Both the position numbers and the translations under genes were made by a program. Source: Vibrio vulnificus CMCP6 (GTDB taxonomy: Bacteria; Pseudomonadota; Gammaproteobacteria; Enterobacterales; Vibrionaceae). From it: 32,000 nucleotides of DNA. How positions within the stretch are numbered: the stretch's first letter is position 1; the number at the start of each line of letters is the position of its first letter. The stretch spans positions 2,001,127-2,033,126 of the forward strand of contig NC_004459.3 of assembly GCF_000039765.1 (NCBI RefSeq). The letters run 5' to 3'. The notes below the pieces were generated by a model, which saw only the letters and a program-made list of their open reading frames with translations, was not told where the DNA came from and ran no database searches. Below, one piece after another: positions 5,657 to 30,473 of the stretch.

Positions 5657-5662
5657 CTGTGA

Positions 5663-14481: not shown

Positions 14482-14490
14482 TATTCTATA

Positions 14491-14531: not shown

Positions 14532-14540
14532 GGGTGTTTA

Positions 14541-14674: not shown

Positions 14675-14677
14675 TAT

Positions 14678-15466: not shown

Positions 15467-15477
15467 ATAAAGACCTC

Positions 15478-16599
15478 TTATACGGCTTGCTCTAAGTCAT
15501 CATTAAACTCAGTCAGTCTAATAGATGGCTCTGCGTGGGGTAAGTTAGTAATTGATACCCCCCAAGGGTAAGGGGTTTTGTTATCTTTTTCGTATTGGTA
15601 AATCGTAATGTGAGGAAGGTTCCGTCTGTCGTACGCTTGACCAAATTTGAATGCTACGCTGTTTTGAGAAGCTAATACGAGGTGTATATCGTTATAGCCT
15701 TCTTCCATGAGATTTTTAACTTCTTCGATCAAATCATAAGCTAAACGACTTTGCTTTTTACTTGACCAGTGATTATCAAAACGCTTTTCCCTCAGTTTCA
15801 AATGTATCTGTGGCATCTTTGGAAAACAGAGGTCAATAGCTTTCTCATCAACAGGGTAAGAGAAAGATACAGCAAGAACGATAGATTCTTTGCTATCAGC
15901 ATGCTTTATTGTCTTTTCAAACTTCTCATTGTCGTCACTAATCGGATCGAGTTCTTTCCAGCTTGATAGTTGTCGATCCCAGTCGAGCACTTCAATATGA
16001 GACTCATCATCCAACAAATATCCTGATAGGAAAGCAAAAGGAACAGGAACTAAACCACCATAAACAATGTGAAAATCTTCAGCAGCAACACTATTTCTTC
16101 GCTCTTCTATAGAGTGCTCTAGATTGAGGAATTTCTTAAGTGCTAATTTGGGTTGGCTTACAGTGCCATTGGCAAGACTGTCTCGGATATCTATTACTGT
16201 ATTGGAAATATTTCGGCCTTTGTATTTTTTCTGAACGTGCTCTGATAGTGGTGAGTCAGATGTGTTTACGAGTCCTCTTTGCTCAATAGCGAATACAATT
16301 TGTTTAGCCAATTGTCGGTGTTCTATAACTGAGCGGACTATCTGCCAAGCTAGCCCAGTTGCCATTAGGAGTATACTGAAATAAAAACCGATAGAAACGA
16401 GTAGAGCAGGGACATCAGAACCAGCAACGTCAAGGCTAATGAGTTGGCTAGCTGTTACGTATTGAACATTGAATGCTACGCCTCCCATCAATGTTATCGG
16501 GAAGAAATAGGCTCCTGTCCTGAAAATTAACAAGGCAGGAGAGCGTTTTCTGAATAGCCAGTTGATGGTCTGAACAACGATATAAGTCAAAAGGTTCAT
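15478..16599 (-). CDS. 2TM-SAVED effector (Cap14-like: N-terminal transmembrane helices plus C-terminal SAVED sensor)
   Basis: 373 aa. The N-terminal ~95 aa contain 2-3 hydrophobic helices. The C-terminal part carries SAVED-like repeats (FHIVYGGLVPVPFAFLSGYLL ... IHLVLASQNSVAFKFGQAYDRRNLPHITIYQYE). Its ATG overlaps the upstream TAA by 1 nt (TAATG). Confidence 0.7.
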   Translation of the reverse strand: MNLLTYIVVQTINWLFRKRSPALLIFRTGAYFFPITLMGGVAFNVQYVTASQLISLDVAGSDVPALLVSIGFYFSILLMATGLAWQIVRSVIEHRQLAKQIVFAIEQRGLVNTSDSPLSEHVQKKYKGRNISNTVIDIRDSLANGTVSQPKLALKKFLNLEHSIEERRNSVAAEDFHIVYGGLVPVPFAFLSGYLLDDESHIEVLDWDRQLSSWKELDPISDDNEKFEKTIKHADSKESIVLAVSFSYPVDEKAIDLCFPKMPQIHLKLREKRFDNHWSSKKQSRLAYDLIEEVKNLMEEGYNDIHLVLASQNSVAFKFGQAYDRRNLPHITIYQYEKDNKTPYPWGVSITNLPHAEPSIRLTEFNDDLEQAV

Positions 16600-17090
16600 T
16601 ACTTTCCTTTGTTTGCTGGTTGATGGTGAGAGTTGTTGATTTGATCCATATATTGCTCAATAGTTAGTTCACCAGGGTGAACACCACCACCACGCCATTC
16701 TCCATCTGATAACCAAAGCTCCCAGTACCACAGCCATTCTTGCGTCCATGGGATGATTGATTCAGCGATTAACATACTAGGCACCCAGTCTTTGGAGCTA
16801 CCGTTGTTAAACATTAGGCAGGGTTTAGTATTCCCTTTGGAGAAGAACTCATGAGGTGAGCGCTTCCCTCCTGCTAGATCTCTTAGATTCGGGGACAACA
16901 CCTCGACCTCAGGAATACAACCTAACCCAGCCCATTTAACAAGGATTAGGTATTCTCGGGTAAGTCGAGAAGGTTGTAGTACTTGTCTCCATTCCAGTTT
17001 TAGACCTGTTTTACCTTTGAGTATTCTACCTTTGCCACCATGGTAACGTTTTTGTAGCGCGTTAAGCTGCCTTTGAAGGTGATGGCACAT
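16599..17090 (-). CDS. Small E2 (UBC-fold)-like protein
   Basis: 163 aa. SPH80-x10-C91-LMF...W102VPSMLIAESIIPW mirrors the E2 HPN-x(~9)-C...W..P pattern. Its ATG abuts the NTase stop with zero spacing. Confidence 0.55.
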   Translation of the reverse strand: MCHHLQRQLNALQKRYHGGKGRILKGKTGLKLEWRQVLQPSRLTREYLILVKWAGLGCIPEVEVLSPNLRDLAGGKRSPHEFFSKGNTKPCLMFNNGSSKDWVPSMLIAESIIPWTQEWLWYWELWLSDGEWRGGGVHPGELTIEQYMDQINNSHHQPANKGK

Positions 17091-18347
17091 CTATACATCA
17101 CCGTAGAAGTTGTGTTTAGGAACGGGGGTGGCAGTGGCTGCATTGGATACTCCTAAACCAATAGAAGAAACTACCGCACGATTTTTCGCTCGTCGTTCAG
17201 TCAGAGTGTCCGCAAGTTTGGCTTGGATGCCTCTTGCTGCTTGAGAACCAAACATTTCTCTTGAGCGCTCAATGGTTTTATCAAGCCCTTGATCTAATTC
17301 AAGTAGTTTTGCTAGGTCTTCAGTAACCTGCGTATACCACGCTTTAAATGCTTGGGGTAACATCGGTTTCTCATGCCATTTATCTGCAAAATTCTCCGTA
17401 GGAAGTGCTGGGTTACGAATAGTGTACTTTAAAGTACCGTCAGACTGATATTGATGGGAAATGAAGTTTGGCATTTCTTCAAGTACATCTAACATCAGAT
17501 CAAATGGGTTGTGGTATTCCTTGTTAGAGTTTGAGCACTTTTCATAAGCTAGACCTGCTAGAGTCGTAATAATTATGCTTATTGGTGCGCAATCGCCATA
17601 AGCGTTCTGCTTATTTTGTTTCCACATGTCTCTATGTCGCTTGAGAAGCTGAACTACAATCTGAAGTACAGTCTTTCGACCCTGACCAGGTAACGGTTCT
17701 ACTGTCCCCGCATGTATATCATTATTAGATCTGTAGTTGCTTTTTCTATTCCAGCGAATCTCTTTACTACACGCGCTTCGGAACCACTTCCTATATCCGT
17801 ATGGATGAGAAGGACTATTGGCATCCTTGATGTCTGCAACTCTCACTTTGCTCTTATGGTTTGGCGAGTCCATATCTTCAGGCATGCTAGGGGTGATGTC
17901 CATGTGGAACCCCTGGCCTTCGATACCTCCATATTGCAGAGTGACACATCTGCGTTTTGGCATATTCTCTATTTTGTCACCGTATCGTTGAGAGTCTTTC
18001 AGCACTCGTATCAAATTGAAGAGTAGCTCGTTGGCTTCATCAGTAGTTGTTGGATAGTGCTGACTTGGTAAGTGGAGCACCAGATCTATATCCATGTCTG
18101 AGTCTTCATCAATCGGTTTTACGGATGTGCCAATACCAACACTACCTTGAGCATAAATGTGGCATTCCGCTAGCTTGCCCCCCTGGTTTGCCAAGTAGGA
18201 TCCGATTGCTCGGTAAGCCGTCTTCAATTGAGACAACTGTGTTTCGGTCAAGTCTAGGTTCGATGTGATATGAGAGATCATCTCGAAACAAAATTCTTTA
18301 TCGCTTGCACTTAGTTGTCTTAGTGATTTGAAACCTTGATCTTGCAC
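17091..18347 (-). CDS. Pol-beta superfamily nucleotidyltransferase, CD-NTase/SMODS-like (putative signal synthase)
   Basis: 418 aa. G68-S69 ... D84-M-D86-I-D88 ... FHMD149ITP is the GS/DxD/D catalytic layout of cGAS/DncV-like NTases. GTG start preceded by AGGAGA at 5-nt spacing. Confidence 0.7.
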   Translation of the reverse strand: MQDQGFKSLRQLSASDKEFCFEMISHITSNLDLTETQLSQLKTAYRAIGSYLANQGGKLAECHIYAQGSVGIGTSVKPIDEDSDMDIDLVLHLPSQHYPTTTDEANELLFNLIRVLKDSQRYGDKIENMPKRRCVTLQYGGIEGQGFHMDITPSMPEDMDSPNHKSKVRVADIKDANSPSHPYGYRKWFRSACSKEIRWNRKSNYRSNNDIHAGTVEPLPGQGRKTVLQIVVQLLKRHRDMWKQNKQNAYGDCAPISIIITTLAGLAYEKCSNSNKEYHNPFDLMLDVLEEMPNFISHQYQSDGTLKYTIRNPALPTENFADKWHEKPMLPQAFKAWYTQVTEDLAKLLELDQGLDKTIERSREMFGSQAARGIQAKLADTLTERRAKNRAVVSSIGLGVSNAATATPVPKHNFYGDV

Positions 18348-19688: not shown

Positions 19689-21371
19689 TTATACTGCTCG
19701 CTCAACAATTGCATCGGTGAGGTGTAATTGGGTGATTTGAGACTCTCGAAGTCTGACTTTTAAGCGCTCACATATACTGAGCAAGTCACTAACTTTTTCT
19801 GTGATACGGACTTGTTCATTTAGAGGAGGAAGCGGTAAGTGCATTTCACCAACATCACTCAACCTAAAGCTATTTTTAATACCTCGTTGTGGAGCATCAA
19901 ACTGATATTTAGCTAGTGGAGACCTCATAAAATCAGGGAAGTATTTTCCTTGGCATTCTGGCATAAATCGTAATAAGCACGTATGTTGGTTTATGTATGC
20001 TTCACCAAACTCTTCAGGAATTAATCCCAAGTTACCGACATCACCTGTTATGGAAATTAATAGATCTCGCGCCTCCAATTTAGTTCGAGAGCCTTCGCCC
20101 CCTTTAGGTGGGCGTACAAACCTTAAATTGTCTAAACGCAGCTCGTAGCTGCCTCGGGATAAATTGCCCATGGTGACAAATAGAGCACCAGAGTCAGAGT
20201 AATATTTAGCCCAATCTCGAGAACCCGATGTAGTAAATAGAGCTACATCTTGAATTCGACACCACTCCCAGCCACTCGGCAGTTCAAACGGCTTTTCATC
20301 TTCAGCAATCGGCGGCAGCGCTTTTTGCTTCTTGATTTTCTTATCTTTGACTAACTGCGCTTTTTCATCCGCAATTCTTTTCAGTAACTCAGCAGCAGGC
20401 TCATCGCTTGGATCTTGTGGAACCAACTTACCCATTACCGCCAGTTGTAAGATGGTTTGTTTAAGCTGGTCGATACTCTCTTCAGTGCTGAATAAGGTAT
20501 CGAAATGCTCACTGATTCGCGCCCAGTTTTGCATTAACTCGTCAGCATCGGCAGAGTTGGTGAGTGTGTCCAACAGTGTTGTTACCAGCAATTGATGCGC
20601 TTCAATACTGGCTTCGGTTTGCTGCTCTAGTTGGTCGCAGAGCGCCATTAGCTCATCGACTTTGGCGACGATGCGGTGTTGCTCGTCGGAAGGGGGGATA
20701 CAAACTACTAGCGCGTTAGCTTCATTTCTATTTAAGCCTGGTTTTATACCCTTTCCGAGTGAGTCTAACCCTAAAGTTTGTAAATGTAGAAAACAATACT
20801 TAAGGCTTATACCTACAGGTGGTATTAAGCTGTAGGCTACATCTGTAACCCAGCAAGGTTGGTCACTTAAATTAATTGCACCCGCAGATCCTTTACGACC
20901 GATAACGAGACAAGGGCTACCAACAGAAAAAAGATTGTGAGTCCCTACAGAACCATTAGAGCCATAGACTAAAAATTCACCACTTTCAGTACGTTTTGCT
21001 TTTGGGAGATTATCCCCATAAACCAAGCTATAAATATCACCAAAATAACAAGCTTGCCAACCTTCTGGTAAAGCAAACGTTATATCTTGTTTTTTAATAG
21101 CAGGGAGCTTTTTGGGCTTTGTAATTTTTTTTTCTTTAATTAACTGCGTTTTTTCCTCTGAAATCCGTTGAAGTAAAAAAGATGCAGGTTCATCGTTTGG
21201 GTTTTGAGGAACGAGTTTGCCGCGAACTGCTAGTTCTAAAATTAGCTCACGCAGCTTCTTAACACCGTAAAGCTCTAGTTTCTTGCTGCTACCGCGACCA
21301 GAGGTCGATTTGGTCTTTACTGCCGAAGTCCAGATATCAATATGCTCGGTAATCAGGTTTTCGACTGCCAT
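19689..21371 (-). CDS. hsdS: Type I restriction-modification specificity subunit HsdS
   Basis: 560 aa with two variable TRDs. Two copies of the conserved spacer LAV(R/M)GKLVPQ(N/D)P(N/S)DEPA..LL.RI..EK.QL(I/V)K(E/D)KKI.K.K.LP. 1-nt overlap with the hsdM stop. Confidence 0.9.
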   Translation of the reverse strand: MAVENLITEHIDIWTSAVKTKSTSGRGSSKKLELYGVKKLRELILELAVRGKLVPQNPNDEPASFLLQRISEEKTQLIKEKKITKPKKLPAIKKQDITFALPEGWQACYFGDIYSLVYGDNLPKAKRTESGEFLVYGSNGSVGTHNLFSVGSPCLVIGRKGSAGAINLSDQPCWVTDVAYSLIPPVGISLKYCFLHLQTLGLDSLGKGIKPGLNRNEANALVVCIPPSDEQHRIVAKVDELMALCDQLEQQTEASIEAHQLLVTTLLDTLTNSADADELMQNWARISEHFDTLFSTEESIDQLKQTILQLAVMGKLVPQDPSDEPAAELLKRIADEKAQLVKDKKIKKQKALPPIAEDEKPFELPSGWEWCRIQDVALFTTSGSRDWAKYYSDSGALFVTMGNLSRGSYELRLDNLRFVRPPKGGEGSRTKLEARDLLISITGDVGNLGLIPEEFGEAYINQHTCLLRFMPECQGKYFPDFMRSPLAKYQFDAPQRGIKNSFRLSDVGEMHLPLPPLNEQVRITEKVSDLLSICERLKVRLRESQITQLHLTDAIVERAV

Positions 21372-22861
21372 TATTGTTCTCCACCTTGCTTTTTACCTTG
21401 AATGGTAGAGCTAAGAGCATCACCGAGAATGCTTTTCAGTTGGTCACGCAGTGCTTTGATGTCTTGTTGTTGCTGCTGATAGTTCGCCAGCAACTCTTCA
21501 GGGTCATGGCTGACGACTTCGTCCTGATACGGGTTTTTAATATCAAGGTTAAAGTTGCGCTCGATAATATCTTCAATCGACACTTTCCAAGCTTGCTTGG
21601 TCTCGATGCGGCTAGCGAATCCATCTGCCTCGTTGCCCCACCAATCGATCTCTTGCTGGAACTCCTCAAACTTCATCGGTTTGGTTTTGCTGTAGTTCTT
21701 CACGCCTTCTGGGTAAGGGTGCTCATAGAACCACACTTCTTTGGTCGGTTGGCCTTTGGTAAAGAACAGAATGTTGGTCTTAATACCTGTGTATGGGTTG
21801 AACACGCCATTAGGTAAGCGAACAATCGTGTGCAGGTTACACTCTTCCGTCAGCATCTTTTTGATTTTGGTTTTTACACCTTCACCAAACAAGGTGCCAT
21901 CAGGCAACACTACACCTGCGCGACCCTCTTTATCCAATACTTCGACAATAAGTTGCAAGAACAAATCGGCCGTTTCACGAGTTTGCATTTCGGCAGGGAA
22001 GTTCTTTTCAATCCCGTCCTCTTCTGTACCGCCAAACGGTGGGTTAGTCGCAATCACGTTGATATTGCTATCCCAACTTGAAAGCGGCTTATTGAGCGTG
22101 TTGCCATGCTTAATCTGCACAGGGACTTCGATGCCGTGGAGCATCATATTGGTGATACACAGCAAATGTGGCAGTTGTTTCTTCTCTACACCATGAATTT
22201 GCTTTTGCAGTGTTTGGTGGTCGGCTGCGCTTGTCACGTAGTTCTCTTTGACGTGATCGAACGAGCAAGCTAAGAAACCGCCCGTGCCGCAAGCGGGATC
22301 CATAATTTGCTCACCTAGCTTTGGATCCAGTCTGTTGACGATAAAACGAGTCACCGCGCGAGGGGTATAGAACTCACCCGCATTACCTGCACTTTGTAGG
22401 TCGCGTAGGATTTGTTCATAGATATCACCAAACAGGTGGCGTTCTTTAGAGTCAGTAAAGTCGATTTCGTTGAGCTTGTTAATCACTTGACGAAGCAGTG
22501 TGCCATTTTTCATGTAGTTGAAGGCATCACTAAAAGCTTCTTTCACCACAAAACCGCGTGGGTTGGTGTCTTTCGGTGCGGTTAGGTTTTTTAACGTCGG
22601 GAATAGGTCATCATTGATAAATTCCAGCAGCTCGTCACCTGTAATGCCTTGGTTATCTGCCGCCCAGTTACGCCAAAGGTACTTGGCTGGGATGGGTTCG
22701 CGGTAATCATCTAACTCGAACTCTAGCTCTTCCTCTTGGGCATCAAACACTTTAAGGAATAAAAGCCACGACATTTGGCCTAGACGCTGCGCGTCACCAT
22801 CAACACCCGCATCTTTACGCATGATGTCTTGAATAGACTTGATAACTGAACTGATTGACAT
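21371..22861 (-). CDS. hsdM: Type I R-M N6-adenine DNA methyltransferase HsdM
   Basis: 496 aa. HsdM N-terminal domain (IQDIMRKDAGVDGDAQRLGQMSWLLFLK), SAM motif DPACGTGGFL, catalytic NPPFG. Confidence 0.95.
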   Translation of the reverse strand: MSISSVIKSIQDIMRKDAGVDGDAQRLGQMSWLLFLKVFDAQEEELEFELDDYREPIPAKYLWRNWAADNQGITGDELLEFINDDLFPTLKNLTAPKDTNPRGFVVKEAFSDAFNYMKNGTLLRQVINKLNEIDFTDSKERHLFGDIYEQILRDLQSAGNAGEFYTPRAVTRFIVNRLDPKLGEQIMDPACGTGGFLACSFDHVKENYVTSAADHQTLQKQIHGVEKKQLPHLLCITNMMLHGIEVPVQIKHGNTLNKPLSSWDSNINVIATNPPFGGTEEDGIEKNFPAEMQTRETADLFLQLIVEVLDKEGRAGVVLPDGTLFGEGVKTKIKKMLTEECNLHTIVRLPNGVFNPYTGIKTNILFFTKGQPTKEVWFYEHPYPEGVKNYSKTKPMKFEEFQQEIDWWGNEADGFASRIETKQAWKVSIEDIIERNFNLDIKNPYQDEVVSHDPEELLANYQQQQQDIKALRDQLKSILGDALSSTIQGKKQGGEQ

Positions 22862-22908: not shown

Positions 22909-23024
22909 GAAATGGGTCGAAGAAAATGAACTTATCGCTATGAAACTATGTTTGTAATTGTGGTTTAATAATGAATCAGTGATATAAATTAAATAATAAA
23001 AAATATAATCAGGTTGTCTAGAAA

Positions 23025-23423
23025 ATGAAGGTTGAGTGTCCCCATTGTCACACTGACAATGTTATTGAATATGCAGAGAATATCTCGTGTGAGAAGTGTG
23101 AAAAAAGCTTCAAAGGCTTTAAATTTAGTAAACGGAAACTGGTGTCTGCCAGTACGGCATTGGTCGTGGGCGTGGTTGGTGGTTATAAGGTGAATGGTGC
23201 TTTTGATGAAGAGCGTTACCCATTAGAAGTAGAGTATGCCATCGTTGATACCTGCATAAACTCGTCAAAAAATATGGTGTCGGTGAGTTGGTATGAGAGT
23301 AAGCGAGAAACGTGTTTATGCGCTCTTTCACAAACGGAAAAGTCTGTGCCGTATTCCGATTACAAATCTGATCAAAACTTGTTTTTGAGTAACTTCAAGC
23401 TGAATGCGAGAAGTTGTTCATAA
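23025..23423 (+). CDS. Hypothetical zinc-ribbon / single-pass membrane protein
   Basis: 132 aa. CPHC-x15-CEKC ribbon, one hydrophobic helix (SASTALVVGVVGGY), Cys-containing C-terminal domain. Confidence 0.5.
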   Translation: MKVECPHCHTDNVIEYAENISCEKCEKSFKGFKFSKRKLVSASTALVVGVVGGYKVNGAFDEERYPLEVEYAIVDTCINSSKNMVSVSWYESKRETCLCALSQTEKSVPYSDYKSDQNLFLSNFKLNARSCS

Positions 23424-23815: not shown

Positions 23816-24184
23816 ATGGGGACAACCCAAAAACAAAAGCAAATTCGAACTATGTTGGATGCGTTAGGCTGGAGCCATAAGCAACTGGCCGATGTTCTTT
23901 ACGAAGAACTTCAGTGTTCTGAATATGAAGACATAGAAGATGCTTCCCCTCAGGAAATTCGGAAGTTTAGAGAGGTTCTCAAGAAGCAGTTACAAAGGGA
24001 ATCTACCCCAGAAAGTCGGCTTGAACAGTACGTGAAAATCATTTCGGAACATCCAGATTTTGTTGCATTGGGGTTGGATGTCGTGGTTCCAAAATACGTT
24101 AACCATAGATGCTTGAATGAGGATTCGCTTGCAGGGCTAGCAGAGATATCCAGTTGGCTGGATGATAGGGAGCAGGTAGGTTAA
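23816..24184 (+). CDS. Hypothetical protein with an HTH-like N-terminus
   Basis: 122 aa. IRTMLDALGWSHKQLADVL resembles an XRE-type helix-turn-helix. Divergent from the small-ORF pair. Terminator follows. Confidence 0.5.
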   Translation: MGTTQKQKQIRTMLDALGWSHKQLADVLYEELQCSEYEDIEDASPQEIRKFREVLKKQLQRESTPESRLEQYVKIISEHPDFVALGLDVVVPKYVNHRCLNEDSLAGLAEISSWLDDREQVG

Positions 24185-24210
24185 AAAACGGCTAAATAGC
24201 CGTTTTGTTC
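24185..24210 (+). terminator. Intrinsic terminator after the 122-aa gene
   Basis: aaaacggcta/aa/tagccgtttt followed by gttct. Confidence 0.55.
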
Positions 24211-24266: not shown

Positions 24267-25595
24267 TCACGATTGGATTTCAGCAGCTTGTATATCATCC
24301 GCTTTGCTACGTAGAGCTAGGTACAACACCCAAGTGATTAGCGCATCAGCAGTAATGCCCAAGCCGAACATTATGGCGATTCGTTCAAGCGTAGGTACAA
24401 AGATACCGATTTGATAAAGCACAAAAGCACAACCGTAAAACAAGGTGTTTACGATAAGTGATTGATACAGCATTAAATCCGTGCGTCCAATACCATAAAA
24501 GTAACTGTCGATGACATTGTTTAAACTGAAAATGACATAGAACCCAACCATTAGCCAAACTAGACTGGTGATTGATTCTGGGTTCTCTATCCCCATGACA
24601 TCGGCTATAAAGCTGTTCCAAAGCGGTGCGGTTAGTATCCAAATAGCAATAATTCCCAACGTTATCCAAAGGTAGCAATTGACTCGCTCCGATGTTAATC
24701 CATTATTTGTTGCAGCATCTTGCTTAACCAGTTGCCCTAATGTCAAAACGGGAAGTAGTAGCCAGCCCCAAATAAATTGATTAGCAACCCAGAATGTTCC
24801 CGCTTGTTGTACTTGGTTAATAAGCTGAAGAATCATGACAATAAAGGCAGTATTTCGCACGAGTGACTCAAGCCCTGACTTCCATCCAATCTTTGCCCAT
24901 TCTTTGAGCCATTGCGACTGCTCTCCTTTAGAAAACTTGAAGCTCAGAGTGATCCCTGATTTAGATAAATAAATCAGGGCAAACAGTGCGAGAAGACTAT
25001 TGACTACGATATTACTCAGAGCAATACCATTCACTCCAAACTGAAGGGAGTAAGGTAGTTGACTGACGAAGACGCTGTCACAAAGGACAGTCATGAGCAT
25101 TTGTACTATTAGAAGGCCATACAGCGCCTTTCGTTCATTTCTTAGGACGAGAACCAAAGACAAAAAAGCATAGAAGCTGGAGAGCAAAATAGCGGCAGAT
25201 TCCAATCGAATGTATTGGATCGTTTGGGTCAATAATTCAGCCTGTTGCTGCATAGCATCTACAAAATTCGGGGCTAGCCACAATACCATTAAGGTCACCA
25301 CAAAGTAGCAAATTAAGGTAACCAAAAGAGATAGACTGGCTCGTTCGCGAAAAGCTTCATTACTATGAATAACTCTGCCTAGAATAAATGCTAGAGGGAT
25401 AAGTAATGCTTCGCTGAGGACTTCATATCCTACATTTAGCCATGCAACTTGTGCTGCAATGCTAAAAGTCCATGGGCTAGGGATGCTGCCCAAGAAATGG
25501 ATTCGTGTAGTTGAGTAGATTAATGGTATTAAGCTTGTCAGAATCAGCACTAGCCACAGTTGGTAGTTGATTGTTTTTATTTGATGATGTTTCAA
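24267..25595 (-). CDS. Polytopic membrane protein, MATE/MOP-superfamily-like (exporter or flippase type)
   Basis: 442 aa, hydrophobic throughout with many (about 10-12 by eye) TM segments. TTG start 3 nt after the upstream stop, with AAGG upstream, suggesting translational coupling. Confidence 0.55.
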   Translation of the reverse strand: MKHHQIKTINYQLWLVLILTSLIPLIYSTTRIHFLGSIPSPWTFSIAAQVAWLNVGYEVLSEALLIPLAFILGRVIHSNEAFRERASLSLLVTLICYFVVTLMVLWLAPNFVDAMQQQAELLTQTIQYIRLESAAILLSSFYAFLSLVLVLRNERKALYGLLIVQMLMTVLCDSVFVSQLPYSLQFGVNGIALSNIVVNSLLALFALIYLSKSGITLSFKFSKGEQSQWLKEWAKIGWKSGLESLVRNTAFIVMILQLINQVQQAGTFWVANQFIWGWLLLPVLTLGQLVKQDAATNNGLTSERVNCYLWITLGIIAIWILTAPLWNSFIADVMGIENPESITSLVWLMVGFYVIFSLNNVIDSYFYGIGRTDLMLYQSLIVNTLFYGCAFVLYQIGIFVPTLERIAIMFGLGITADALITWVLYLALRSKADDIQAAEIQS

Positions 25596-25598
25596 TTT

Positions 25599-26885
25599 TT
25601 AAGCCTTGTTATCTTCACTAGGGATCTCGTGGAGAAAGCAACTCTCCACAGAGAAATAGCCATTACTTTTAATCAGTTGTTTCTTTCTAAGCCGTTCGAA
25701 CAGTGTGATTAGGTACTGATAAAGCTCAGTATATTGCGCTGTACTGATATGAGTTGCTGAGCAGTTAAATACTTGCCATGGGAAATTAATCAATGTTGTA
25801 GCGGCATGTTTGGGAAGGTAGTTGTGTTTAAACTCACTTAGCAATAAATGTTCTAGCTGAACACAATAGTGCTGGATGATAGAGCAGTGAAAGTGGTACT
25901 TGTAACTGTCGTTGTTAGCGATAAGGTTCGGTAAGGAGCAAAATAAAAAGTAAACCTGAGCGGCCAACTCTTTGGCTTGCTTTCGCTCGCTTGTATGTGT
26001 TTTGGTAACGGCGTCTAATTGTTCTGCAAGACCAAGCTCACCCTTTAAAATAGTGAAATGAACGTTGTAGATTTGTGACTCACGATAATAAAGAGAAATG
26101 TCAGACAGCGATTGGCCTATAACGATTTCTATAAGCAAACGGTCTTGTGTCCTAAGAGTGATTTTCGACCCCAAAATATCGGTATGAGCCACTTGTTCAC
26201 CGAACAATCTAAGGAGTCTTTCATGCCAACCTTGAACCGAAATCGATGACTGAATAAATAAATCGATATCAGAGCGCTTTGTTAACTGATTAGCCCCCAA
26301 GCTTCCGTAAAGTAGAGCTATAGGTACGCTTGTATCTGTGCTCAATACTTTATTCAGCTTACTGACCCAAGTGTGTTGAGATAATGGGAAGGCCGTCCAG
26401 AAGGCATCAAAGTTATCAGAGAAGTCAAAACTGTAAGACTGCCAAATCTGTCTTTGCCAGTGAGTTTCTAGCTCTATCGGTATGATTTTATCTTCCAAAA
26501 ATCTAATAGTTTCATCAACAGCTTGCAGTTTTTTGTAGGATGATGGGTAAGGGATTTCTGAGTATTTCTCGTCATCAATTGCATTGATGCTCTGCTCAAT
26601 ATCTCTAGTGCAACAGATTAATATGCCTGTTTTCCTATCTAATTGATTGGTAAGAAGGCTAGCTGTTTGACCGTATCCTGTAAATTCAACAATAGCGTTT
26701 TCCTGTTGTTTAACCGCAGCAAGGAAATGCTCACAAGCAAGTTGCTCACCTTGCTCGGTTCCATCGCCAAAGCGAATTCGATACTCATCTAAAGATAAAT
26801 AAGGGAACTCAGGCAAACGTCCTTGTATTTGTTTACTTAACGTTGTTTTACCTGAATTTAGGTTACCAAAAATATAGATATGCAT
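25599..26885 (-). CDS. Fusion protein: N-terminal P-loop NTPase/kinase-like domain, pol-beta nucleotidyltransferase domain, helical C-terminal domain
   Basis: 428 aa. Walker A G7NLNSGKTT. NTase signature YG194S-x10-D206ID208LF. All-helical C-terminal ~170 aa. Lies 56 nt downstream of hsdR on the same strand. Confidence 0.6.
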   Translation of the reverse strand: MHIYIFGNLNSGKTTLSKQIQGRLPEFPYLSLDEYRIRFGDGTEQGEQLACEHFLAAVKQQENAIVEFTGYGQTASLLTNQLDRKTGILICCTRDIEQSINAIDDEKYSEIPYPSSYKKLQAVDETIRFLEDKIIPIELETHWQRQIWQSYSFDFSDNFDAFWTAFPLSQHTWVSKLNKVLSTDTSVPIALLYGSLGANQLTKRSDIDLFIQSSISVQGWHERLLRLFGEQVAHTDILGSKITLRTQDRLLIEIVIGQSLSDISLYYRESQIYNVHFTILKGELGLAEQLDAVTKTHTSERKQAKELAAQVYFLFCSLPNLIANNDSYKYHFHCSIIQHYCVQLEHLLLSEFKHNYLPKHAATTLINFPWQVFNCSATHISTAQYTELYQYLITLFERLRKKQLIKSNGYFSVESCFLHEIPSEDNKA

Positions 26886-26902: not shown

Positions 26903-26931
26903 AACCAAGCTAAAGAAACTCTAGCTTGGTT
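26903..26931 (-). other. 10-bp perfect hairpin between hsdR and the P-loop/NTase gene, without a U-tract
   Basis: aaccaagcta/9-nt loop/tagcttggtt. On the minus strand it is followed by aacgacc, so it is not a canonical intrinsic terminator and read-through from hsdR is plausible. Confidence 0.4.
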
Positions 26932-26941: not shown

Positions 26942-29419
26942 TTAGGCTGATTGATAAATCTCAGCTTCCAACTCAGAAATTGCTTCTAAATACTGCTCTT
27001 TACCACCAAAGCACTTTTTGACGATTTCAGCAGGGCGTCCCATCTCGTCAAAAGGCTTAACTTTGAGTACATGAATATTTTCAATCTCTTGAACGCCTTC
27101 GTCTGCGTACTTGTCTAGTAAGTTGTTCAACACCTGCTGAGCCGTTTCACCGTACTTAGTGAAGTAGTTGCGCTTTTTGACGTTGTCAGCGCGTTCTTTT
27201 CTGGTGAGTGCTGGTTGGTCATACACGACATGACAAATCATGTCGAATGGGTCGAGATCTTTGCCTACTTCCAGCTCTAACGCTTCCCAGATAATGCCTT
27301 CCTCTGCCAGTTCATCAATGATTGCTTGCTTTTTATCGGCATCTTGCCAGCGCTTAACAAAGTCATCCATTGAGGTGAACTGTTTTGCCATCGTCTTGCG
27401 GGTATAGTCTTTGAACGATTCGGTTACGAGTTTACCGTCGGAATCGTAGTATTGAACACGTTCGGCAATGGCTTTCACCGTTACACCGTTGACATGGAAC
27501 TTTCTAACTCGGTTTTCATCCTGCCAATCATCATCGGAATTGCTACCGTCAGAAGGAGATGAACCTGAGTCGTATGAAGCCTCTGGTTCATGGATGCTTT
27601 CAGGGTCAATATCATCCCCTTCAAATGGATTATCTTGTTCAAGTTCATCCTCATCATCGATGATCTCATCGAGTCCTTCATTGGTATCGAAGTCTTCTGG
27701 TTTTGTCTCTTTAACTCGCTCAGGTACACCATCAAAGCGCTCATCAGCGAACAGTTCAGTCGCCTTTTTGAAGTCGAGAATGGTAAACCATAGCTTTCCG
27801 TAACGATCATCAATACGAGTGCCGCGACCGATGATCTGCTTAAACTTAGTCATCGACTGGATGCCTTGGTCAAGAACAACCAGTTTGCAAGTTTTGGCAT
27901 CGACACCTGTTGTCATTAGCTCTGAGGTGGTTGCGATAACAGGGTAAGCCTTTTTGGGATTAATGAAGTTATCAAGCTGAGCTTTGCCGATTTCATCATC
28001 ACCTGTAATTTTCATTACGTATTTTTCATTTTTAGCAACTTGCTCAGGATTGCAGTTGATTAGCGCTCGACGCATACGCTCTGCATGGTCAATATCATTA
28101 CAGAACACAATGGTCTTAGCCATAGGGTCGGTACGCTTGAGGTAGCTGGTTATGGTCTTTGCAACAAGCTCTGTTCGCTCATCGATGACCATGGTTCTGT
28201 CGAAGTCTTTCTGGTTGTAGATCCTGTCTTCGATAACTTCACCATGTTTATCGACTTGCCCTTTGGTTGGTCGCCAACCTTGTAAATCTACATCGATATC
28301 CACACGCACAACTTTGTAAGGGGCTAAGAAACCGTCTTCAATGCCTTGCTTTAGAGAGTAGGTATAAATGGCGTCGCCAAAGTACTCGGTGTTAGACACG
28401 ATATCGGTTTCTTTCGGTGTCGCGGTTAGTCCTATTTGAGTCGCTGAACCGAAATACTCAAGAATCTCGCGCCATGCGCTGTCCTCAGCGGCACTACCAC
28501 GATGGCACTCGTCAACGACAATAAGGTCAAAGAAATCTGGATCGACTTGTTTGTATGCTTTTTGGTGCTCTTCTGGGCCAGTCAGAGCTTGATACAGAGC
28601 TAGGTGGATTTCGTAAGCGGGATCGACGCTTCTCCCTGTGACTTTGGTCATAGCGGTGCCAAACGGTTGGAAGTCGTTGGTCTTGGTTTGATCGACCAGA
28701 ATGTTTCTGTCCGCCAAAAACAGGATGCGTTTTTTGGCTCGGGACTTCCATAGTCGCCAAATAATCTGGAATGCAGTGTAAGTTTTGCCCGTACCCGTTG
28801 CCATAACCAAGAGTACACGGTTTTGTCCTGCTGCGACCGCTTCCACGGTTTTGTTTATCGCTTGTAGCTGATAGTAGCGCGGAGACTTACCGCTACCATC
28901 ATCATGGTAATCTTGAGTAATGACTGGAAGGTGCTCGGTTTTGTAGCCTTTCCAAACGCAGTACTTGTCCCATAGTTGCTGAGGTGTCGGGAAGTCTTCA
29001 AGTCGAATTTCAGTTTCGAGTTGAGCTGGGTTGGTTTTGTCGTGGAAGATAAAACCGTCGCCATTTGAGGCAAAAACAAAAGGGACTTCAAGTAGGCTGG
29101 CGTAATCTAGTCCTTGTTGCATACCTTTGCCGACTTCATGCTTGTTCGCTTTTGCTTCGACAACGGCTAGAGGCATGCTCGGTTTATGGTAAAGGACGAT
29201 GTCCGCAGACTTAACTTTTTTCCTCGCCGCTGCCTGACCACGAACAATGACCTTACCGTCACGTAGTTTTACCTCTTGACGGATTTGAGACATATCATCC
29301 CATCCAGCATCTTTGATAGCAGGAAGAATGAATTTCGTGATGATGTCGGTTTCAGATAGCTTTGATTTATTGATTGTCGATTCCATGCGATTAGCCAGCT
29401 CAGTACAAATGCATTTCAT
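26942..29419 (-). CDS. hsdR: Type I restriction enzyme R subunit HsdR (EcoEI/type IB-like C-terminal domain)
   Basis: 825 aa. N-terminal PD-(D/E)xK nuclease (ADIVLY...AVVEAKAN), SF2 helicase motifs MATGTGKT and DECH. Acidic linker, then an EcoEI-R-type C-terminus. An alternative start MESTINK lies at 29386. Confidence 0.9.
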
Positions 29420-29576: not shown

Positions 29577-29807
29577 CTAATCCAGTAAGTCAGTTCGATC
29601 TTTGGGTAAAAGATCAGTCACTTCACAATCGAGGACTCGAGCTAGCTGATAAAGCTTTTCAACTGTGATTCGAACGCCATCTCTTTCTACCTTACCTAAG
29701 TAACCTCGACTAAAGCCCGCCTTGATACTCGCATCGGAGCTTGATAGTCCGATTTTTGTTCGTTTATCAATGATATTTTGAGCTATTTCTTTTGCTAAAT
29801 TATTCAT
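29577..29807 (-). CDS. XRE-family helix-turn-helix transcriptional regulator
   Basis: 76 aa. IIDKRTKIGLSSSDASIKAGFSRGYLGKVERDGVRITVEKLYQLARVLDCEV is a canonical Cro/C1 HTH. Confidence 0.8.
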   Translation of the reverse strand: MNNLAKEIAQNIIDKRTKIGLSSSDASIKAGFSRGYLGKVERDGVRITVEKLYQLARVLDCEVTDLLPKDRTDLLD

Positions 29808-29931: not shown

Positions 29932-29948
29932 ATTTGATAAGGAAGTAT

Positions 29949-30473
29949 ATGAGAGTAGGTACTAAAGAGTTGTACAAAATCGGTTTGGAAACTCTTCAGC
30001 ATTATGAGCAAGAAGAGTACTTCAGCTTGTTTAGTTACCGAAAGCTTTTGAGGCCTTTTCTCGAGACGCATTACTGCATTGATGAACATATTGAGCGTTT
30101 TAATAATCAGTCTTATCGAATTTTGAAAATACTAGAACAGGAAGGGAAGGTTGTGCGATTAAGTCCCCCTCGAATAAATAACGCTCAATTTGTTGCAGTC
30201 GGAGGCACAAAAGTCACACAAGAAAAGCATAGAGTAGGCCAAGGGTATTTAGAGTCTGAGCTAGTTAGCGAAGAGCGACAATACCAAGATCAGTTGAACA
30301 CTAAACTTGTTGAAATTAATGACCAAATAGTTGCGCATAAAGAACTGCTGGATCTATTTCCAGTTCATGGTGAACATTTGAACAACGAAATAGAAAAGCT
30401 AGAGCGTGAAGCATTACTTACTGAATATAAGAAAGAAATTATGGGGAAGATTATTAATCAAGAGAAACGCTAA
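29949..30473 (+). CDS. Hypothetical 174-aa protein (globular N-terminus, coiled-coil-like C-terminus)
   Basis: ATG at 29949 preferred over the track's TTG at 29934 because AAGGAAG sits just upstream. C-terminal half is heptad-like (QYQDQLNTKLVEINDQIVAHKELLDL...EIEKLEREALLTEYKKE). No family recognised. Confidence 0.55.
   Translation: MRVGTKELYKIGLETLQHYEQEEYFSLFSYRKLLRPFLETHYCIDEHIERFNNQSYRILKILEQEGKVVRLSPPRINNAQFVAVGGTKVTQEKHRVGQGYLESELVSEERQYQDQLNTKLVEINDQIVAHKELLDLFPVHGEHLNNEIEKLEREALLTEYKKEIMGKIINQEKR

What the first reader, a model, noticed from the sequence alone, without database searches (positions are those of the whole stretch)
24267..26885. P-loop NTPase / pol-beta NTase fusion translationally coupled to a MATE/MOP-like membrane protein, immediately downstream of hsdR
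The 428-aa protein combines three parts: a Walker-A kinase-like N-domain (GNLNSGKTT), a pol-beta nucleotidyltransferase signature (YGS-x10-DID) and a helical C-domain.

The next gene starts with TTG three nucleotides after its stop. It encodes a 442-aa, roughly 10-12-TM protein resembling MATE or flippase-type exporters.

The pair lies 56 nt downstream of hsdR. Only a U-tract-less hairpin separates them, so co-transcription with hsdR is plausible.

I do not recognise a kinase-NTase plus exporter-like pair as a named defence, resistance or toxin-antitoxin system. Three hypotheses:
- an R-M-guarding (PrrC-like) abortive module;
- a small-molecule or nucleotide modification-and-export system;
- an antibiotic-type nucleotidylation and efflux pair captured by the island.
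Basis: partly seen in the sequence, partly recalled or inferred. Interest (0 to 1): 0.7.

Follow-up and report, generated by a model that had tools for sequence, protein, structure and literature searches.

The report
Kinase–nucleotidyltransferase plus MATE exporter cassette
Inside a split type I restriction-modification locus sits a conserved, uncharacterised gene pair, a two-headed small-molecule-modifying enzyme and its own efflux pump, that most likely tags and exports a small polar compound and does not guard the restriction enzyme.

Summary
The 428-aa protein has a nucleoside-kinase-like P-loop domain joined to a LinB/ANT(4')-like nucleotidyltransferase with a helical C-domain. Both catalytic centres stay invariant down to about 22% identity.

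The 442-aa partner is a true 12-TM MATE antiporter of one curated clade (NCBIfam NF045539).

The pair is a real functional unit:
- A NF045539 MATE lies adjacent or one gene away in 30 of 33 informative loci, spanning several phyla.
- Gene order is rearranged between clades.
- Divergences of the two genes are correlated (Mantel r 0.93).
- Probable natural MATE–kinase–NTase fusions exist.

Recurrent extra partners are phosphatases of three unrelated folds, PhyH dioxygenases and radical-SAM enzymes. That is small-molecule, probably nucleoside-type, chemistry.

The pair lies between hsdR and hsdMS of one mobile R-M lineage. In relatives the same slot holds the MATE alone. Most family members have no hsd nearby, so a PrrC-like guard is poorly supported.

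It belongs to no known resistance clade or named defence system, has no plasmid or phage copies, and I found no literature on it. Substrate and purpose (detoxification or secretion) remain unknown.

The parts
26942..29419 (-). hsdR, type I restriction subunit (825 aa), upstream flank of the slot
   Evidence: Pfam ResIII 6.6e-47, EcoEI_R_C 6.9e-39, HSDR_N. It is 80-98% identical to hsdR in all hsd-embedded relatives.
29770..29798 (-). sigma-70-like promoter candidate upstream of hsdR; possible promoter of an hsdR-fusion-MATE transcript
   Evidence: Consensus scan, 9 of 12 matches. No promoter-like site was found on the minus strand between hsdR and the fusion gene. Weak evidence only.
26903..26931 (-). 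13-bp hairpin without a T-run in the 56-nt hsdR-fusion spacer
   Evidence: RNAfold dG -18.8 kcal/mol. It is absent from the equivalent spacers of L007 and L052. MATE-only loci instead have a GC stem plus T5 terminator at this position.
26391..26885 (-). Fusion protein N-domain (residues 1-165): P-loop small-molecule / nucleoside-kinase-like domain (Walker A G7-T14, D33, R36, E67, PYP 112-114)
   Evidence: G7, N8, G12, K13, D33 and R36 are invariant in 45 homologues. Foldseek matches shikimate and adenylate kinases, Fap7 and 2rhm. The domain profile best matches Nrk1 (2.3e-5), dCK (4e-5) and dGK, over the P-loop to IDDF segment only. Stand-alone homologues of about 170 aa exist.
26016..26390 (-). 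Fusion protein pol-beta nucleotidyltransferase core (residues 166-290): G194-S195, S205-D206-x-D208, E253
   Evidence: Pfam Polbeta 27.8 bits against a 26.9 cutoff. G194, S205, D206, D208 and E253 are invariant. The profile hits LinB at 3.7e-7 with the carboxylates aligned.
25602..26015 (-). Fusion protein helical C-domain (residues 291-428) with conserved D326, F332 and the H-N-Y-L-P-K motif (354-359)
   Evidence: AlphaFold model, mean pLDDT 91. The NTase plus C-domain superposes on LinB 3jyy (E 5.8e-9, TM 0.69 on target length), ANT(4') and ANT(6).
24267..25595 (-). MATE-family antiporter (442 aa, TTG start 3 nt after the fusion stop), clade NCBIfam NF045539
   Evidence: NF045539 scores 592 bits against a 350 cutoff. 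AlphaFold pLDDT 82.7, pTM 0.83, 12 TM helices. Foldseek matches PfMATE, VcmN and NorM at TM 0.74-0.80, ahead of MurJ and WzxE.
24185..24206 (.). Hairpin with flanking T/A runs between the convergent MATE and orf122 genes; likely bidirectional terminator ending the hsdR-fusion-MATE unit
   Evidence: Terminator scan and direct reading of the sequence.
23816..24184 (+). orf122, a small opposite-strand ORF in the same slot, function unknown (optional occupant)
   Evidence: Conserved in L002 (92%) and L007 (38%) at the same position. Absent in L001 and L003, and replaced by His_Phos_1 in L004 and L052. No significant family hit.
23025..23423 (+). orf132, a small opposite-strand ORF with an N-terminal CxxC...CxxC zinc-ribbon-like motif, function unknown (optional occupant)
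   Evidence: Conserved in L002 (99%) and L007 (47%). Only weak Zn_ribbon hits.
21371..22861 (-). hsdM, downstream flank of the slot
   Evidence: Pfam N6_Mtase 1.7e-92, HsdM_N. It is 84-99% identical in hsd-embedded relatives. A promoter-like site lies at 22993-23020 (-).
19689..21371 (-). hsdS specificity subunit (overlaps the hsdM stop)
   Evidence: Pfam Methylase_S, two stretches. It is highly variable between loci, at 40-78% identity.

Best explanation
The two genes form a self-contained 'modify-and-export' cassette for a small polar molecule.

The cytoplasmic 428-aa enzyme carries two active sites. One is an ATP-dependent, nucleoside-kinase-like P-loop domain. The other is a LinB/ANT-like nucleotidyltransferase. 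Together they would phosphorylate and/or nucleotidylylate hydroxyl groups of one substrate, most plausibly a nucleoside-like compound. The dedicated MATE antiporter (clade NF045539) would then expel the substrate or the tagged product using the cation gradient.

My preferred purpose is detoxification or immunity against an incoming or endogenous toxic metabolite. The reason is that the pump alone is kept in the same genomic slot in relatives, so efflux is useful by itself and the enzyme adds an inactivation layer.

The cassette is cargo in the variable central slot of one mobile type I R-M lineage. It is probably co-transcribed with hsdR but does not depend on R-M.

Shown: the domain identities, conservation of both catalytic centres, the tight evolutionary linkage of the two genes, and their independence from hsd in most loci.

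Inferred: the enzymatic activities, that the same molecule is both modified and exported, the substrate class, and detoxification as the purpose.
For: Domain identities:
- The NTase plus C-domain matches LinB (E 5.8e-9, TM 0.69 on target length), ANT(4') and ANT(6). The N-domain matches shikimate and adenylate kinases.
- Domain profiles hit LinB at 3.7e-7 and Nrk1, dCK and dGK at 2e-5 to 3e-4.
- K13, D33 and R36, and G194, D206, D208 and E253, are invariant across 45 homologues at 19-59% identity.
- The partner is a true MATE by curated HMM (592 bits against a 350 cutoff) and by fold (TM up to 0.80 to VcmN and PfMATE).

Linkage of the two genes:
- A NF045539 MATE is adjacent or one gene away in 30 of 33 informative loci.
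- Gene order and strand are rearranged between clades: F>M, M>F, M-PHP-F, and convergent. Stop and start codons often overlap by -1 or -4 nt.
- Divergences of the two genes are correlated, Mantel r 0.93 with 0 of 2000 permutations as high.
- Proteins P0091 and P0103 (Mycoplasmopsis) have about 12 TM helices fused N-terminally to the kinase-NTase. hhalign to the MATE profile gives 88% probability, E 2.8e-6.

Small-molecule flavour of the neighbours:
- PHP in 9 neighbour proteins, radical SAM in 5, PhyH in 3, O-methyltransferase in 2, His_Phos_1 in 2.
- Y_phosphatase3 or methyltransferase fused to the same modules in distant relatives.
- The PHP proteins are closest to 3',5'-nucleoside-bisphosphate phosphatase.
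- NUDIX plus HAD hydrolases lie beside a MATE-only copy.

The pump is useful alone: MATE-only copies sit in the same hsd slot and elsewhere.

Independence from hsd:
- No intact homologue of this hsd system in any of the 29 metagenome-derived loci.
- L005, L006, L009 and L010 have no hsd nearby; L008 has only a distantly related type I system about 4 kb away.
- L011 keeps the pair beside only an hsdR remnant.
Against: - No substrate is identified and no activity has been tested.
- Phosphatase partners of three unrelated folds are hard to explain for a pure inactivation enzyme. They fit a biosynthetic 'cryptic phosphorylation' logic better.
- The family is absent from 72,556 plasmids and from known resistance HMMs, unlike typical mobile resistance genes.
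- The NTase and C-domains are near-neutral (pI 6.5 and 7.8), unlike the acidic aminoglycoside NTases. The classic ANT substrates are therefore unlikely.
- Many loci lie in defence-island-like surroundings: CBASS here, and AbiEii, RelB, NERD, MqsA/SocA and Tn7 cargo with PLD elsewhere. That would favour an anti-phage role.
- The kinase assignment rests on fold plus about 38 aligned residues.
Confidence: 0.4

Rival explanations
1. Biosynthesis and secretion. The kinase-NTase converts a common cellular nucleoside, nucleotide or metabolite into a phosphorylated or nucleotidylylated product. That product could be a signal, an antimicrobial or an anti-phage chemical. The MATE secretes it. The optional phosphatases, dioxygenases, radical-SAM enzymes and methyltransferases act as tailoring or 'cryptic phosphorylation' steps.
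For: - Recurrent phosphatases of three unrelated folds (His_Phos_1, PHP, Y_phosphatase3), plus PhyH, radical SAM and O-methyltransferase, sit next to or are fused with the module.
- Kinase + phosphatase + exporter logic is documented for nucleoside natural products: sinefungin uses the kinase SinF, the phosphatase SinD and the transporter SinE (bioRxiv 10.64898/2026.05.21.726688).
- A nucleoside-kinase plus radical-SAM cluster makes 4'-thiothymidine in Photorhabdus (PMC12691670).
- The linkage evidence is the same as for the best explanation.
Against: - The window version has only the two genes and no scaffold-building enzyme.
- The MATE alone is retained in the same slot and in ordinary chromosomal settings. 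A pure secretion pathway does not explain that.
- No product is known.
Confidence: 0.25
2. R-M-linked defence. The MATE, with or without the kinase-NTase, is a functional accessory of the type I enzyme. It could be a PrrC-like guard triggered when restriction is blocked. It could instead protect the SAM-dependent enzyme by clearing nucleoside antimetabolites, or starve phage by tagging and exporting nucleotides.
For: - The pair or the MATE alone occupies the hsdR-hsdM slot in Vibrio, Photobacterium and Shewanella: window, L001-L004, L007, L046-L048 and L052.
- No promoter or terminator is detected between hsdR and the fusion gene.
- Type I-embedded defence genes have precedents: TgvAB in VPI-2 (PMC11411939) and PrrC (PMC12707154).
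- The window is a tRNA-Arg-linked island with a CBASS operon.
- The embedded genes are much more divergent than their hsd flanks, as is often seen in conflict genes.
Against: - All embedded cases share one hsd lineage (hsdR 80-98% identical). The association may therefore be a single historical insertion.
- No intact homologue of this hsd system in the 29 metagenome-derived loci. L011 keeps the pair without hsd.
- 7 of 10 MATE contexts sampled independently are not in hsd.
- No nuclease, toxin or sensor domain is present, and there is no significant PADLOC match.
- MATE-only loci have a canonical terminator after hsdR.
Confidence: 0.12
3. Nucleic-acid end modification. The kinase, NTase and phosphatase act on RNA or DNA ends as a repair-like or toxin-like system comparable to Pnkp or MenT/AbiEii. 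The MATE would be only loosely related.
For: - The kinase + phosphatase + NTase combination recalls RNA-repair enzymes.
- NYN and DEDD (RNase_T) nucleases lie next to some distant members.
- PHP neighbours also resemble RNase AM.
- The NTase core weakly matches MNT/MntA.
Against: - The best fold and profile matches are small-molecule NTases and small-molecule kinases. Polynucleotide kinase scores only E 0.025.
- The tight, rearrangement-tolerant linkage and the probable physical fusion to a MATE transporter make no sense for an RNA-end enzyme.
- There is no HEPN or toxin partner.
Confidence: 0.07
4. The two genes are unrelated neighbours that happen to share an insertion hot spot.
For: The hsdR-hsdM gap is variable (orf122/orf132, His_Phos_1, or nothing extra). 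The MATE also occurs alone.
Against: 30 of 33 informative loci keep the pair together across phyla, through changes of order and strand, with overlapping stop and start codons and correlated divergence. Probable gene fusions also exist.
Confidence: 0.03

Closest known systems
Lincosamide nucleotidyltransferase LinB/Lnu(B), and aminoglycoside nucleotidyltransferases ANT(4') and ANT(6)
   Same: Two-domain architecture: a pol-beta NTase core (GS...DxD/E plus a third carboxylate) followed by a helical bundle. These are the best structural matches (3jyy E 5.8e-9, TM 0.69 on target length; 6un8, 1kny, 8vxb) and the best profile match (LinB 3.7e-7 with the metal ligands aligned). They are small-molecule O-nucleotidylyltransferases.
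   Different: - Only 12-14% identity, with no hit to any NCBIfam resistance model.
- An extra N-terminal kinase-like domain.
- Its own conserved C-domain motif (HNYLPK).
- Near-neutral charge.
- Obligate MATE partner.
- No plasmid copies.
- No resistance phenotype is known.
P-loop nucleoside and small-molecule kinases (Nrk1, dCK/dGK, shikimate kinase, adenylate kinase)
   Same: Walker A (K13), an acidic residue after strand 2 (D33, aligned with the Nrk1 'QDDF' segment), R36, and a Walker-B-like E67. The fold matches shikimate and adenylate kinases.
   Different: The sequence match covers only about 38 residues. The lid region is replaced by a helical segment with an invariant P-Y-P motif. No conserved lid arginines were found beyond R36. 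The domain is fused to an NTase.
Bifunctional antibiotic-modifying enzymes paired with efflux (for example AAC(6')-APH(2'') type fusions; named from my own knowledge, not tested here)
   Same: Two modifying activities in one polypeptide, plausibly acting on one small molecule, together with export.
   Different: Different folds and chemistry (P-loop kinase plus pol-beta NTase). There is no evidence that the substrate is a clinical antibiotic. Accessory phosphatases are unusual for resistance.
MATE transporters PfMATE, VcmN and NorM
   Same: 12-TM, two-lobe MATE fold with TM 0.74-0.80. Invariant intramembrane acidic residues are present: E58, E62, E132, D173, E243, D363.
   Different: A divergent clade. 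Pfam MatE scores only 21.6 bits, below its 24.9 cutoff, and TIGR00797 scores far below its cutoff. The clade has its own NCBIfam model. It is distinctive for its genomic partners: the kinase-NTase, nucleotide hydrolases, and the hsd slot.
Type I R-M-embedded systems: PrrC in EcoprrI, TgvAB in V. cholerae VPI-2
   Same: Genes inserted between subunit genes of a type I R-M locus in a genomic island (PMC12707154; PMC11411939).
   Different: PrrC is an anticodon nuclease and TgvAB is a GmrSD-like type IV restriction system. This pair has neither domain type, and its family is mostly found without hsd.
Cryptic phosphorylation / export logic of nucleoside natural-product clusters (sinefungin SinF/SinD/SinE)
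   Same: A kinase, a phosphatase and an exporter acting on a nucleoside-type metabolite (bioRxiv 10.64898/2026.05.21.726688). Radical-SAM and dioxygenase neighbours occur in the wider family.
   Different: No homology was tested or claimed. The window cassette lacks any scaffold-forming enzyme and lacks a phosphatase.

Membership tests
MATE family (MOP superfamily), NCBIfam NF045539 MATE_efflux1 | Full-length match to the curated family HMM above its cutoff | tested here: met
   592.4 bits against a 350 cutoff, covering profile positions 1-411 of 411. Ten partner MATEs from other loci score 488-581 bits.
MATE family (MOP superfamily), NCBIfam NF045539 MATE_efflux1 | 12 TM helices in two 6-TM lobes with a MATE fold, as opposed to the 14-TM MurJ or Wzx flippases | tested here: met
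   The AlphaFold model (pLDDT 82.7) shows 12 long helices. Top Foldseek hits are PfMATE, VcmN, hMATE1 and NorM at TM 0.74-0.80. MurJ and WzxE rank lower, at 0.61-0.74.
MATE family (MOP superfamily), NCBIfam NF045539 MATE_efflux1 | Pfam MatE (PF01554) above its gathering threshold | tested here: not met
   21.6 bits against a 24.9 cutoff. This is a divergent clade. Membership rests on the NCBIfam model and the fold.
MATE family (MOP superfamily), NCBIfam NF045539 MATE_efflux1 | Cation-coupled efflux activity and substrate | not testable with these tools
   Invariant membrane-embedded acidic residues exist. I did not map them onto the NorM or PfMATE coupling sites.
Lnu/Lin and ANT antibiotic nucleotidyltransferases | Pol-beta NTase catalytic motif (G[SG]-x9-13-DxD/E plus a third carboxylate) | tested here: met
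   G194, S195, D206, D208 and E253 are invariant and align to the LinB motif.
Lnu/Lin and ANT antibiotic nucleotidyltransferases | NTase core followed by a helical substrate/nucleotide-binding domain (shared fold) | tested here: met
   3jyy E 5.8e-9, TM 0.69 on target length, 259 aligned columns. ANT(4') and ANT(6) also match.
Lnu/Lin and ANT antibiotic nucleotidyltransferases | Sequence membership in a recognised resistance family (curated HMM) | tested here: not met
   The NCBIfam scan gave only MntA_antitoxin at 16.8 bits against a 60 cutoff. No Lnu or ANT model hit at E<0.1. Identity to the structures is 12-14%.
Lnu/Lin and ANT antibiotic nucleotidyltransferases | Confers resistance to lincosamides or aminoglycosides | not testable with these tools
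   Needs MIC assays.
P-loop nucleoside/NMP-type kinases | Walker A GxxxxGK[ST] and a Walker-B-like acidic residue at the end of a hydrophobic strand | tested here: met
   G7-x4-G12-K13-[ST] is invariant. E67 is at least 90% conserved in the fusion alignment and invariant in the stand-alone N-domain alignment.
P-loop nucleoside/NMP-type kinases | Acceptor-activating Asp after strand 2 and phosphate-binding Arg residues (lid) | tested here: inconclusive
   D33 and R36 are invariant and align with the Nrk1 'QDDF' region. No conserved lid arginines were seen in the wide alignment.
PrrC-like R-M guard (anticodon nuclease embedded in type I hsd) | Location inside a type I hsd locus | tested here: met
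   The pair lies between hsdR and hsdM/hsdS in the window.
PrrC-like R-M guard (anticodon nuclease embedded in type I hsd) | ABC-ATPase-like N-domain plus a C-terminal anticodon-nuclease domain | tested here: not met
   No such domains appear in the Pfam, NCBIfam or PADLOC scans or in the fold search.
PrrC-like R-M guard (anticodon nuclease embedded in type I hsd) | Family-wide dependence on an adjacent hsd system | tested here: not met
   No intact homologue of this hsd system in the 29 metagenome-derived loci. L011 has only a 44-residue hsdR remnant. L005, L006, L009 and L010 have no hsd nearby.
Named anti-phage defence systems (PADLOC-DB v2) | Significant match of either protein to a system model | tested here: not met
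   Fusion: only weak partial NTase-core hits (PDC-M05A 1.7e-4, PDC-S09 5e-3). MATE: none.
MNT/HEPN (MntA-HepT) toxin-antitoxin | Minimal NTase with a HEPN partner, and a curated HMM match | tested here: not met
   MntA scores 16.8 bits against a 60 cutoff. No HEPN gene is adjacent. The protein is 428 aa with extra domains.

The most novel reading that the evidence does not exclude
The NF045539 MATE, alone or armed with the kinase-nucleotidyltransferase, is a true functional accessory of a SAM-dependent type I restriction enzyme. That would be a new kind of 'metabolite-level' immunity module. It could clear nucleoside antimetabolites that would disable the enzyme's cofactor use (sinefungin-like SAM analogues, or phage-made products). 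Alternatively, on infection it could tag nucleotides and pump them out to starve the phage. The evidence does not exclude this. The transporter recurs in the hsdR-hsdM slot with and without the enzyme, it appears to be co-transcribed with hsdR here, it sits in defence islands, and it evolves much faster than its hsd flanks.
Probability: 0.1. Interest if true: 0.85.

Novelty: new variant of a known kind. Interest (0 to 1): 0.5.

Why it matters
If the cassette inactivates and expels a nucleoside-type or other antibiotic, it is an unrecognised resistance determinant. It circulates on mobile islands of Vibrio (including V. vulnificus and V. parahaemolyticus) and Shewanella, and it is invisible to current resistance databases.

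If it instead makes and secretes a nucleotide-derived compound, it is a minimal two-gene pathway to a new extracellular metabolite.

In either case it gives a first functional handle on three things:
- a whole MATE clade currently labelled generically 'multidrug transporter';
- a widespread fused kinase-NTase family annotated as hypothetical;
- an example of non-nuclease cargo in the variable slot of type I R-M loci. This matters for the common assumption that genes embedded in defence loci are themselves defence genes.

Tried and rejected
It was redone with A5.

Searches that found nothing:
- Plasmid and phage tblastn for both proteins: no match.
- The genomic context of P0036 was not on record.
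- Seven full-text literature searches found no paper on this pair or on a MATE gene inside hsd loci. The V. harveyi paper that held the search terms lists unrelated transporters.

Inconclusive tests:
- A direct HMM comparison of the P0091 and P0103 membrane regions with the MATE profile was defeated by composition bias. Only hhalign gave a usable, moderate result, and only for P0091.
- Sliding nucleotide identity, meant to test cassette exchange against fast evolution, was inconclusive because the hsd flanks are themselves only about 77-80% identical.

Readings considered and rejected:
- Wzx/MurJ-type flippase: the MATE fold ranks higher and there are 12 rather than 14 TM helices.
- MNT/HEPN antitoxin.
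- CD-NTase-like signalling enzyme: only a weak CdnE hit with TM 0.20.
- Classical aminoglycoside NTase: no family hit, and near-neutral domains.

Full report
**Observation**

- The fusion ORF is 25599..26885 (-), 428 aa. GNLNSGKTT is at residues 7-15, and YGS-x10-DID at residues 193-208.
- Its TAA stop is followed by AAA and then a TTG that opens a 442-aa ORF at 24267..25595 (-). An AAGG motif lies 9 nt upstream of the TTG.
- hsdR (26942..29419, -) ends 56 nt before the fusion ATG. The spacer holds a 13-bp hairpin (dG -18.8 kcal/mol) with no T-run.

The pair is therefore embedded between hsdR and hsdMS. Two small opposite-strand ORFs share the gap: orf122 at 23816..24184 and orf132 at 23025..23423.

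A hairpin with flanking T/A runs at 24185-24206 separates the convergent MATE and orf122 genes. No sigma-70-like site was found between hsdR and the fusion gene. Candidates lie upstream of hsdR and of hsdM. That is weakly consistent with an hsdR-fusion-MATE transcript and a separate hsdMS transcript.

**Island context**

The region starts at tRNA-Arg(TCT), 14405-14481, just after folD, where GC falls from about 0.49 to about 0.40-0.45. It carries:
- a CBASS operon: CD-NTase at 17091..18347 and a SAVED-2TM effector at 15478..16599;
- a WYL regulator;
- the split type I R-M with the pair inside.

**The enzyme**

Pfam recognises only the NTase core, marginally (Polbeta 27.8 bits against a 26.9 cutoff). 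NCBIfam and PADLOC give nothing significant.

An AlphaFold model built on 23 homologues is confident (mean pLDDT 91, pTM 0.77).
- NTase plus helical C-domain: Foldseek against PDB matches lincosamide nucleotidyltransferase LinB (3jyy, E 5.8e-9, TM 0.69 on target length), ANT(4') and ANT(6).
- N-domain: it matches shikimate and adenylate kinases, Fap7 and a putative kinase.

Domain-specific profiles searched against PDB sequences agree.
- NTase plus C-domain: best hit LinB at 3.7e-7, with the metal-binding carboxylates aligned.
- N-domain: best hits Nrk1 (2.3e-5), deoxycytidine kinase (4e-5) and deoxyguanosine kinase. The match covers only the P-loop to 'IDDF' segment, about 38 residues.

In a 45-sequence alignment (19-59% identity to the window protein) the invariant residues are G7, N8, G12, K13, D33, R36, F54, G70, G194, S205, D206, D208, E253 and P358. 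Both catalytic centres are therefore under selection.

The NTase and C-domains are near-neutral (pI 6.5 and 7.8). That argues against a polycationic aminoglycoside substrate.

**The transporter**

- It is a full-length member of NCBIfam NF045539, 'MATE family Na+-driven efflux transporter' (592 bits against a 350 cutoff).
- It falls below Pfam's MatE threshold.
- Its AlphaFold model (pLDDT 82.7, pTM 0.83) has 12 long helices.
- It superposes best on PfMATE, V. cholerae VcmN, human MATE1 and NorM (TM 0.74-0.80), ahead of MurJ and WzxE.

**Is the pair a unit?**

Close homologues of the fusion protein are few: 40 clusters among 5.8 billion proteins, in Vibrio, Aliivibrio, Photobacterium and Shewanella. 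An exhaustive profile search widens the family to 605 representatives at E<=1e-3, of which 74 are at E<=1e-30. These include stand-alone N-domains and stand-alone NTase plus C-domain proteins.

I fetched 9 loci from reference genomes and 29 from metagenomes.
- A MATE lies adjacent or one gene away in 30 of the 33 loci with enough flank.
- All ten partner MATEs tested belong to NF045539, scoring 488-581 bits.
- The arrangement changes between clades: fusion>MATE in Vibrionaceae and Shewanella, convergent in an Oceanospirillales Tn7-like element (L008), and MATE>fusion or MATE-PHP-fusion in the distant clade. Stop and start codons often overlap by -1 or -4 nt.
- Pairwise divergences of the two proteins are correlated: Mantel r 0.93, with 0 of 2000 permutations as high. 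Shared phylogeny contributes to this figure.
- Two long proteins, P0091 and P0103 from Mycoplasmopsis hyopharyngis, carry about 12 predicted TM helices directly N-terminal to the kinase-NTase. hhalign of the P0091 region against the MATE profile gives 88% probability, E 2.8e-6, over 172 columns. This is a probable, not certain, Rosetta-stone fusion.

**The association is asymmetric**

The MATE clade is much larger, with over 660 clusters. Ten contexts sampled starting from the MATE gave:
- the pump alone in Enterobacter, Marinomonas, Thalassotalea, Moritella, Pseudidiomarina and Shewanella carassii;
- the pump beside NUDIX and HAD hydrolases in V. splendidus;
- the pump alone between hsdR and hsdM in V. 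vulnificus (seen in 52 blocks of the collection) and in Shewanella algae. A six-frame search found no fusion-like fragment there;
- in V. rumoiensis, hsdR-fusion-MATE-His_Phos_1-hsdM (verified).

The enzyme therefore almost always needs the pump, but the pump does not need the enzyme.

**Accessory partners**

Around or fused to the module I found phosphatases of three unrelated folds:
- His_Phos_1 in L004, L052, L032 and L033;
- PHP in 9 neighbour proteins, closest to 3',5'-nucleoside-bisphosphate phosphatase and RNase AM;
- Y_phosphatase3 fused in P0090, P0133, P0136 and P0172.

I also found PhyH dioxygenases (L005, L006, L008), radical-SAM enzymes, O-methyltransferases, and some NYN and DEDD nucleases.

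This is the vocabulary of small-molecule, probably nucleoside-type, tailoring. Kinase + phosphatase + exporter logic is documented for sinefungin. A nucleoside-kinase plus radical-SAM cluster is documented for 4'-thiothymidine in Photorhabdus. These are analogies, not tested homologies.

**Relation to hsd**

All embedded cases share one hsd lineage. Against the window, hsdR is 80-98% and hsdM 84-99% identical, while the MATE is 48-98% and the fusion 43-95% identical. The slot content varies:
- the pair alone (L001, L003);
- the pair plus orf122/orf132 (window, L002, L007);
- the pair plus His_Phos_1 (L004, L052);
- the MATE alone (L046-L048).

Other points that bear on the link:
- A neighbour-joining tree, without support values, places embedded MATEs in at least three positions interspersed with non-embedded ones.
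- Nucleotide identity steps from about 77% in hsdR to about 50% in the fusion, 55-70% in the MATE and about 80% in hsdM, with the steps at the gene borders. The flanks are too diverged to separate cassette exchange from faster evolution.
- Outside this lineage the pair has no hsd. None of the 29 metagenome-derived loci carries an intact homologue, and L011 keeps a 93%-identical pair beside only a 44-residue hsdR remnant.
- L008 is Tn7-like cargo (TnsD upstream) that also carries a PLD-family gene and a distantly related type I system. L005 lies next to umuDC.
- MATE-only loci have a canonical terminator after hsdR. Fusion-bearing loci have a T-less hairpin or none.

**Interpretation**

Best supported is a self-contained modify-and-export cassette: a bifunctional kinase/nucleotidyltransferase acting on a small hydroxylated, plausibly nucleoside-like molecule, with a dedicated MATE pump. 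It rides as cargo in the variable slot of a mobile type I R-M family.

I lean towards detoxification or immunity because the pump alone is retained in the same slot. The phosphatase and tailoring partners keep a biosynthesis-and-secretion reading alive.

An R-M-linked defence role is not excluded. In its favour are the recurrent slot, the defence-island neighbours, fast evolution, and the TgvAB and PrrC precedents. It lacks positive support, and the family's distribution contradicts a strict PrrC-like model.

An RNA-end-modifying role is unlikely given the transporter linkage and the small-molecule-type folds.

**Novelty**

- There is no significant match in PADLOC and none to resistance models.
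- There are no plasmid or phage copies.
- Seven full-text searches found no paper on this pair or arrangement.
- Public annotations are 'hypothetical protein', 'nucleotidyltransferase domain-containing protein' and 'multidrug transporter'.

The parts are of known kinds. The fused enzyme, its obligate MATE clade and the hsd-slot habit appear undescribed. I rate it a new variant of a known kind, of moderate interest. Substrate and biological role are open.

Noticed in passing
window 14678-18347 (-): A CBASS operon: CD-NTase (17091..18347; PADLOC cyclase 1e-103), an unannotated 163-aa ORF (16599..17090), a SAVED-fused 2TM effector (15478..16599), and a 262-aa protein with a CoiA_N-like motif (14678..15466). 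The 163-aa and 262-aa genes have no assigned role.
   Followed up: partly
window 18521-19423 (+): A WYL-domain protein (PADLOC WYL 7e-11) is transcribed divergently from the CBASS cyclase and lies next to hsdS. It may be a regulator of the island's defence genes.
   Followed up: no
window 14405-14481 (+) and the GC profile around 14000: tRNA-Arg(TCT) lies directly after folD and marks the island border. GC drops from about 0.49-0.51 to about 0.40-0.45 beyond it.
   Followed up: partly
window 23025-23423 (+) and 23816-24184 (+): Two small opposite-strand ORFs share the hsdR-hsdM slot: orf132, with an N-terminal CxxC...CxxC zinc-ribbon-like motif, and orf122. Both are conserved at the same position in Vibrio sp. 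ES.051 (L002) and a Shewanella MAG (L007, 47% and 38% identity). They are absent in L001 and L003. They may be a separate embedded two-gene module of unknown function.
   Followed up: partly
L046/L047 (V. vulnificus) 5001-6332; L048 (Shewanella algae) 5001-6329: A NF045539 MATE gene alone, with no kinase-NTase, lies between hsdR and hsdM of the same R-M lineage. A canonical terminator follows hsdR. VspR-like and ResIII genes lie upstream.
   Followed up: yes
L040/L041 (V. splendidus) 5592-10593: A MATE_efflux1 gene lies in a cluster with a weak TIR_2-like protein (270 aa), a 129-aa ORF, a NUDIX hydrolase, a HAD phosphatase and a 296-aa unknown protein. This is another nucleotide-flavoured partner set for this transporter clade.
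   Followed up: no
P0091 (834 aa) and P0103 (796 aa, Mycoplasmopsis hyopharyngis): Single polypeptides with about 12 TM helices followed by the kinase-NTase module. They are probable MATE-enzyme fusions (hhalign 88% probability for P0091).
   Followed up: partly
L004 16514-18178 and L052 10428-11317: An AAA_15/AAA_21 (ABC/OLD-like) ATPase gene directly follows hsdS in the two loci that also carry His_Phos_1. This may be a further defence gene attached to this R-M lineage.
   Followed up: no
L008 (Oceanospirillales) 1784-16758: Here the pair is cargo of a Tn7-like element (TnsD/TniQ at 6159-8057). With it are a PhyH dioxygenase, a PLD-family protein, a DUF4357 protein and a different type I R-M. 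The MATE is convergent to the fusion gene.
   Followed up: partly
window 19689-21371 compared with relatives: hsdS is only 40-78% identical between loci whose hsdR and hsdM are 80-99% identical. This is the usual target-recognition-domain shuffling. The embedded genes show a similar or greater excess divergence.
   Followed up: partly
window 29934-30473 (+) and 31014-31805 (-): Two ORFs beyond hsdR have no informative family hit. The 263-aa one is coiled-coil-like, with only a weak Cnn_1N match. Their function is unknown.
   Followed up: no
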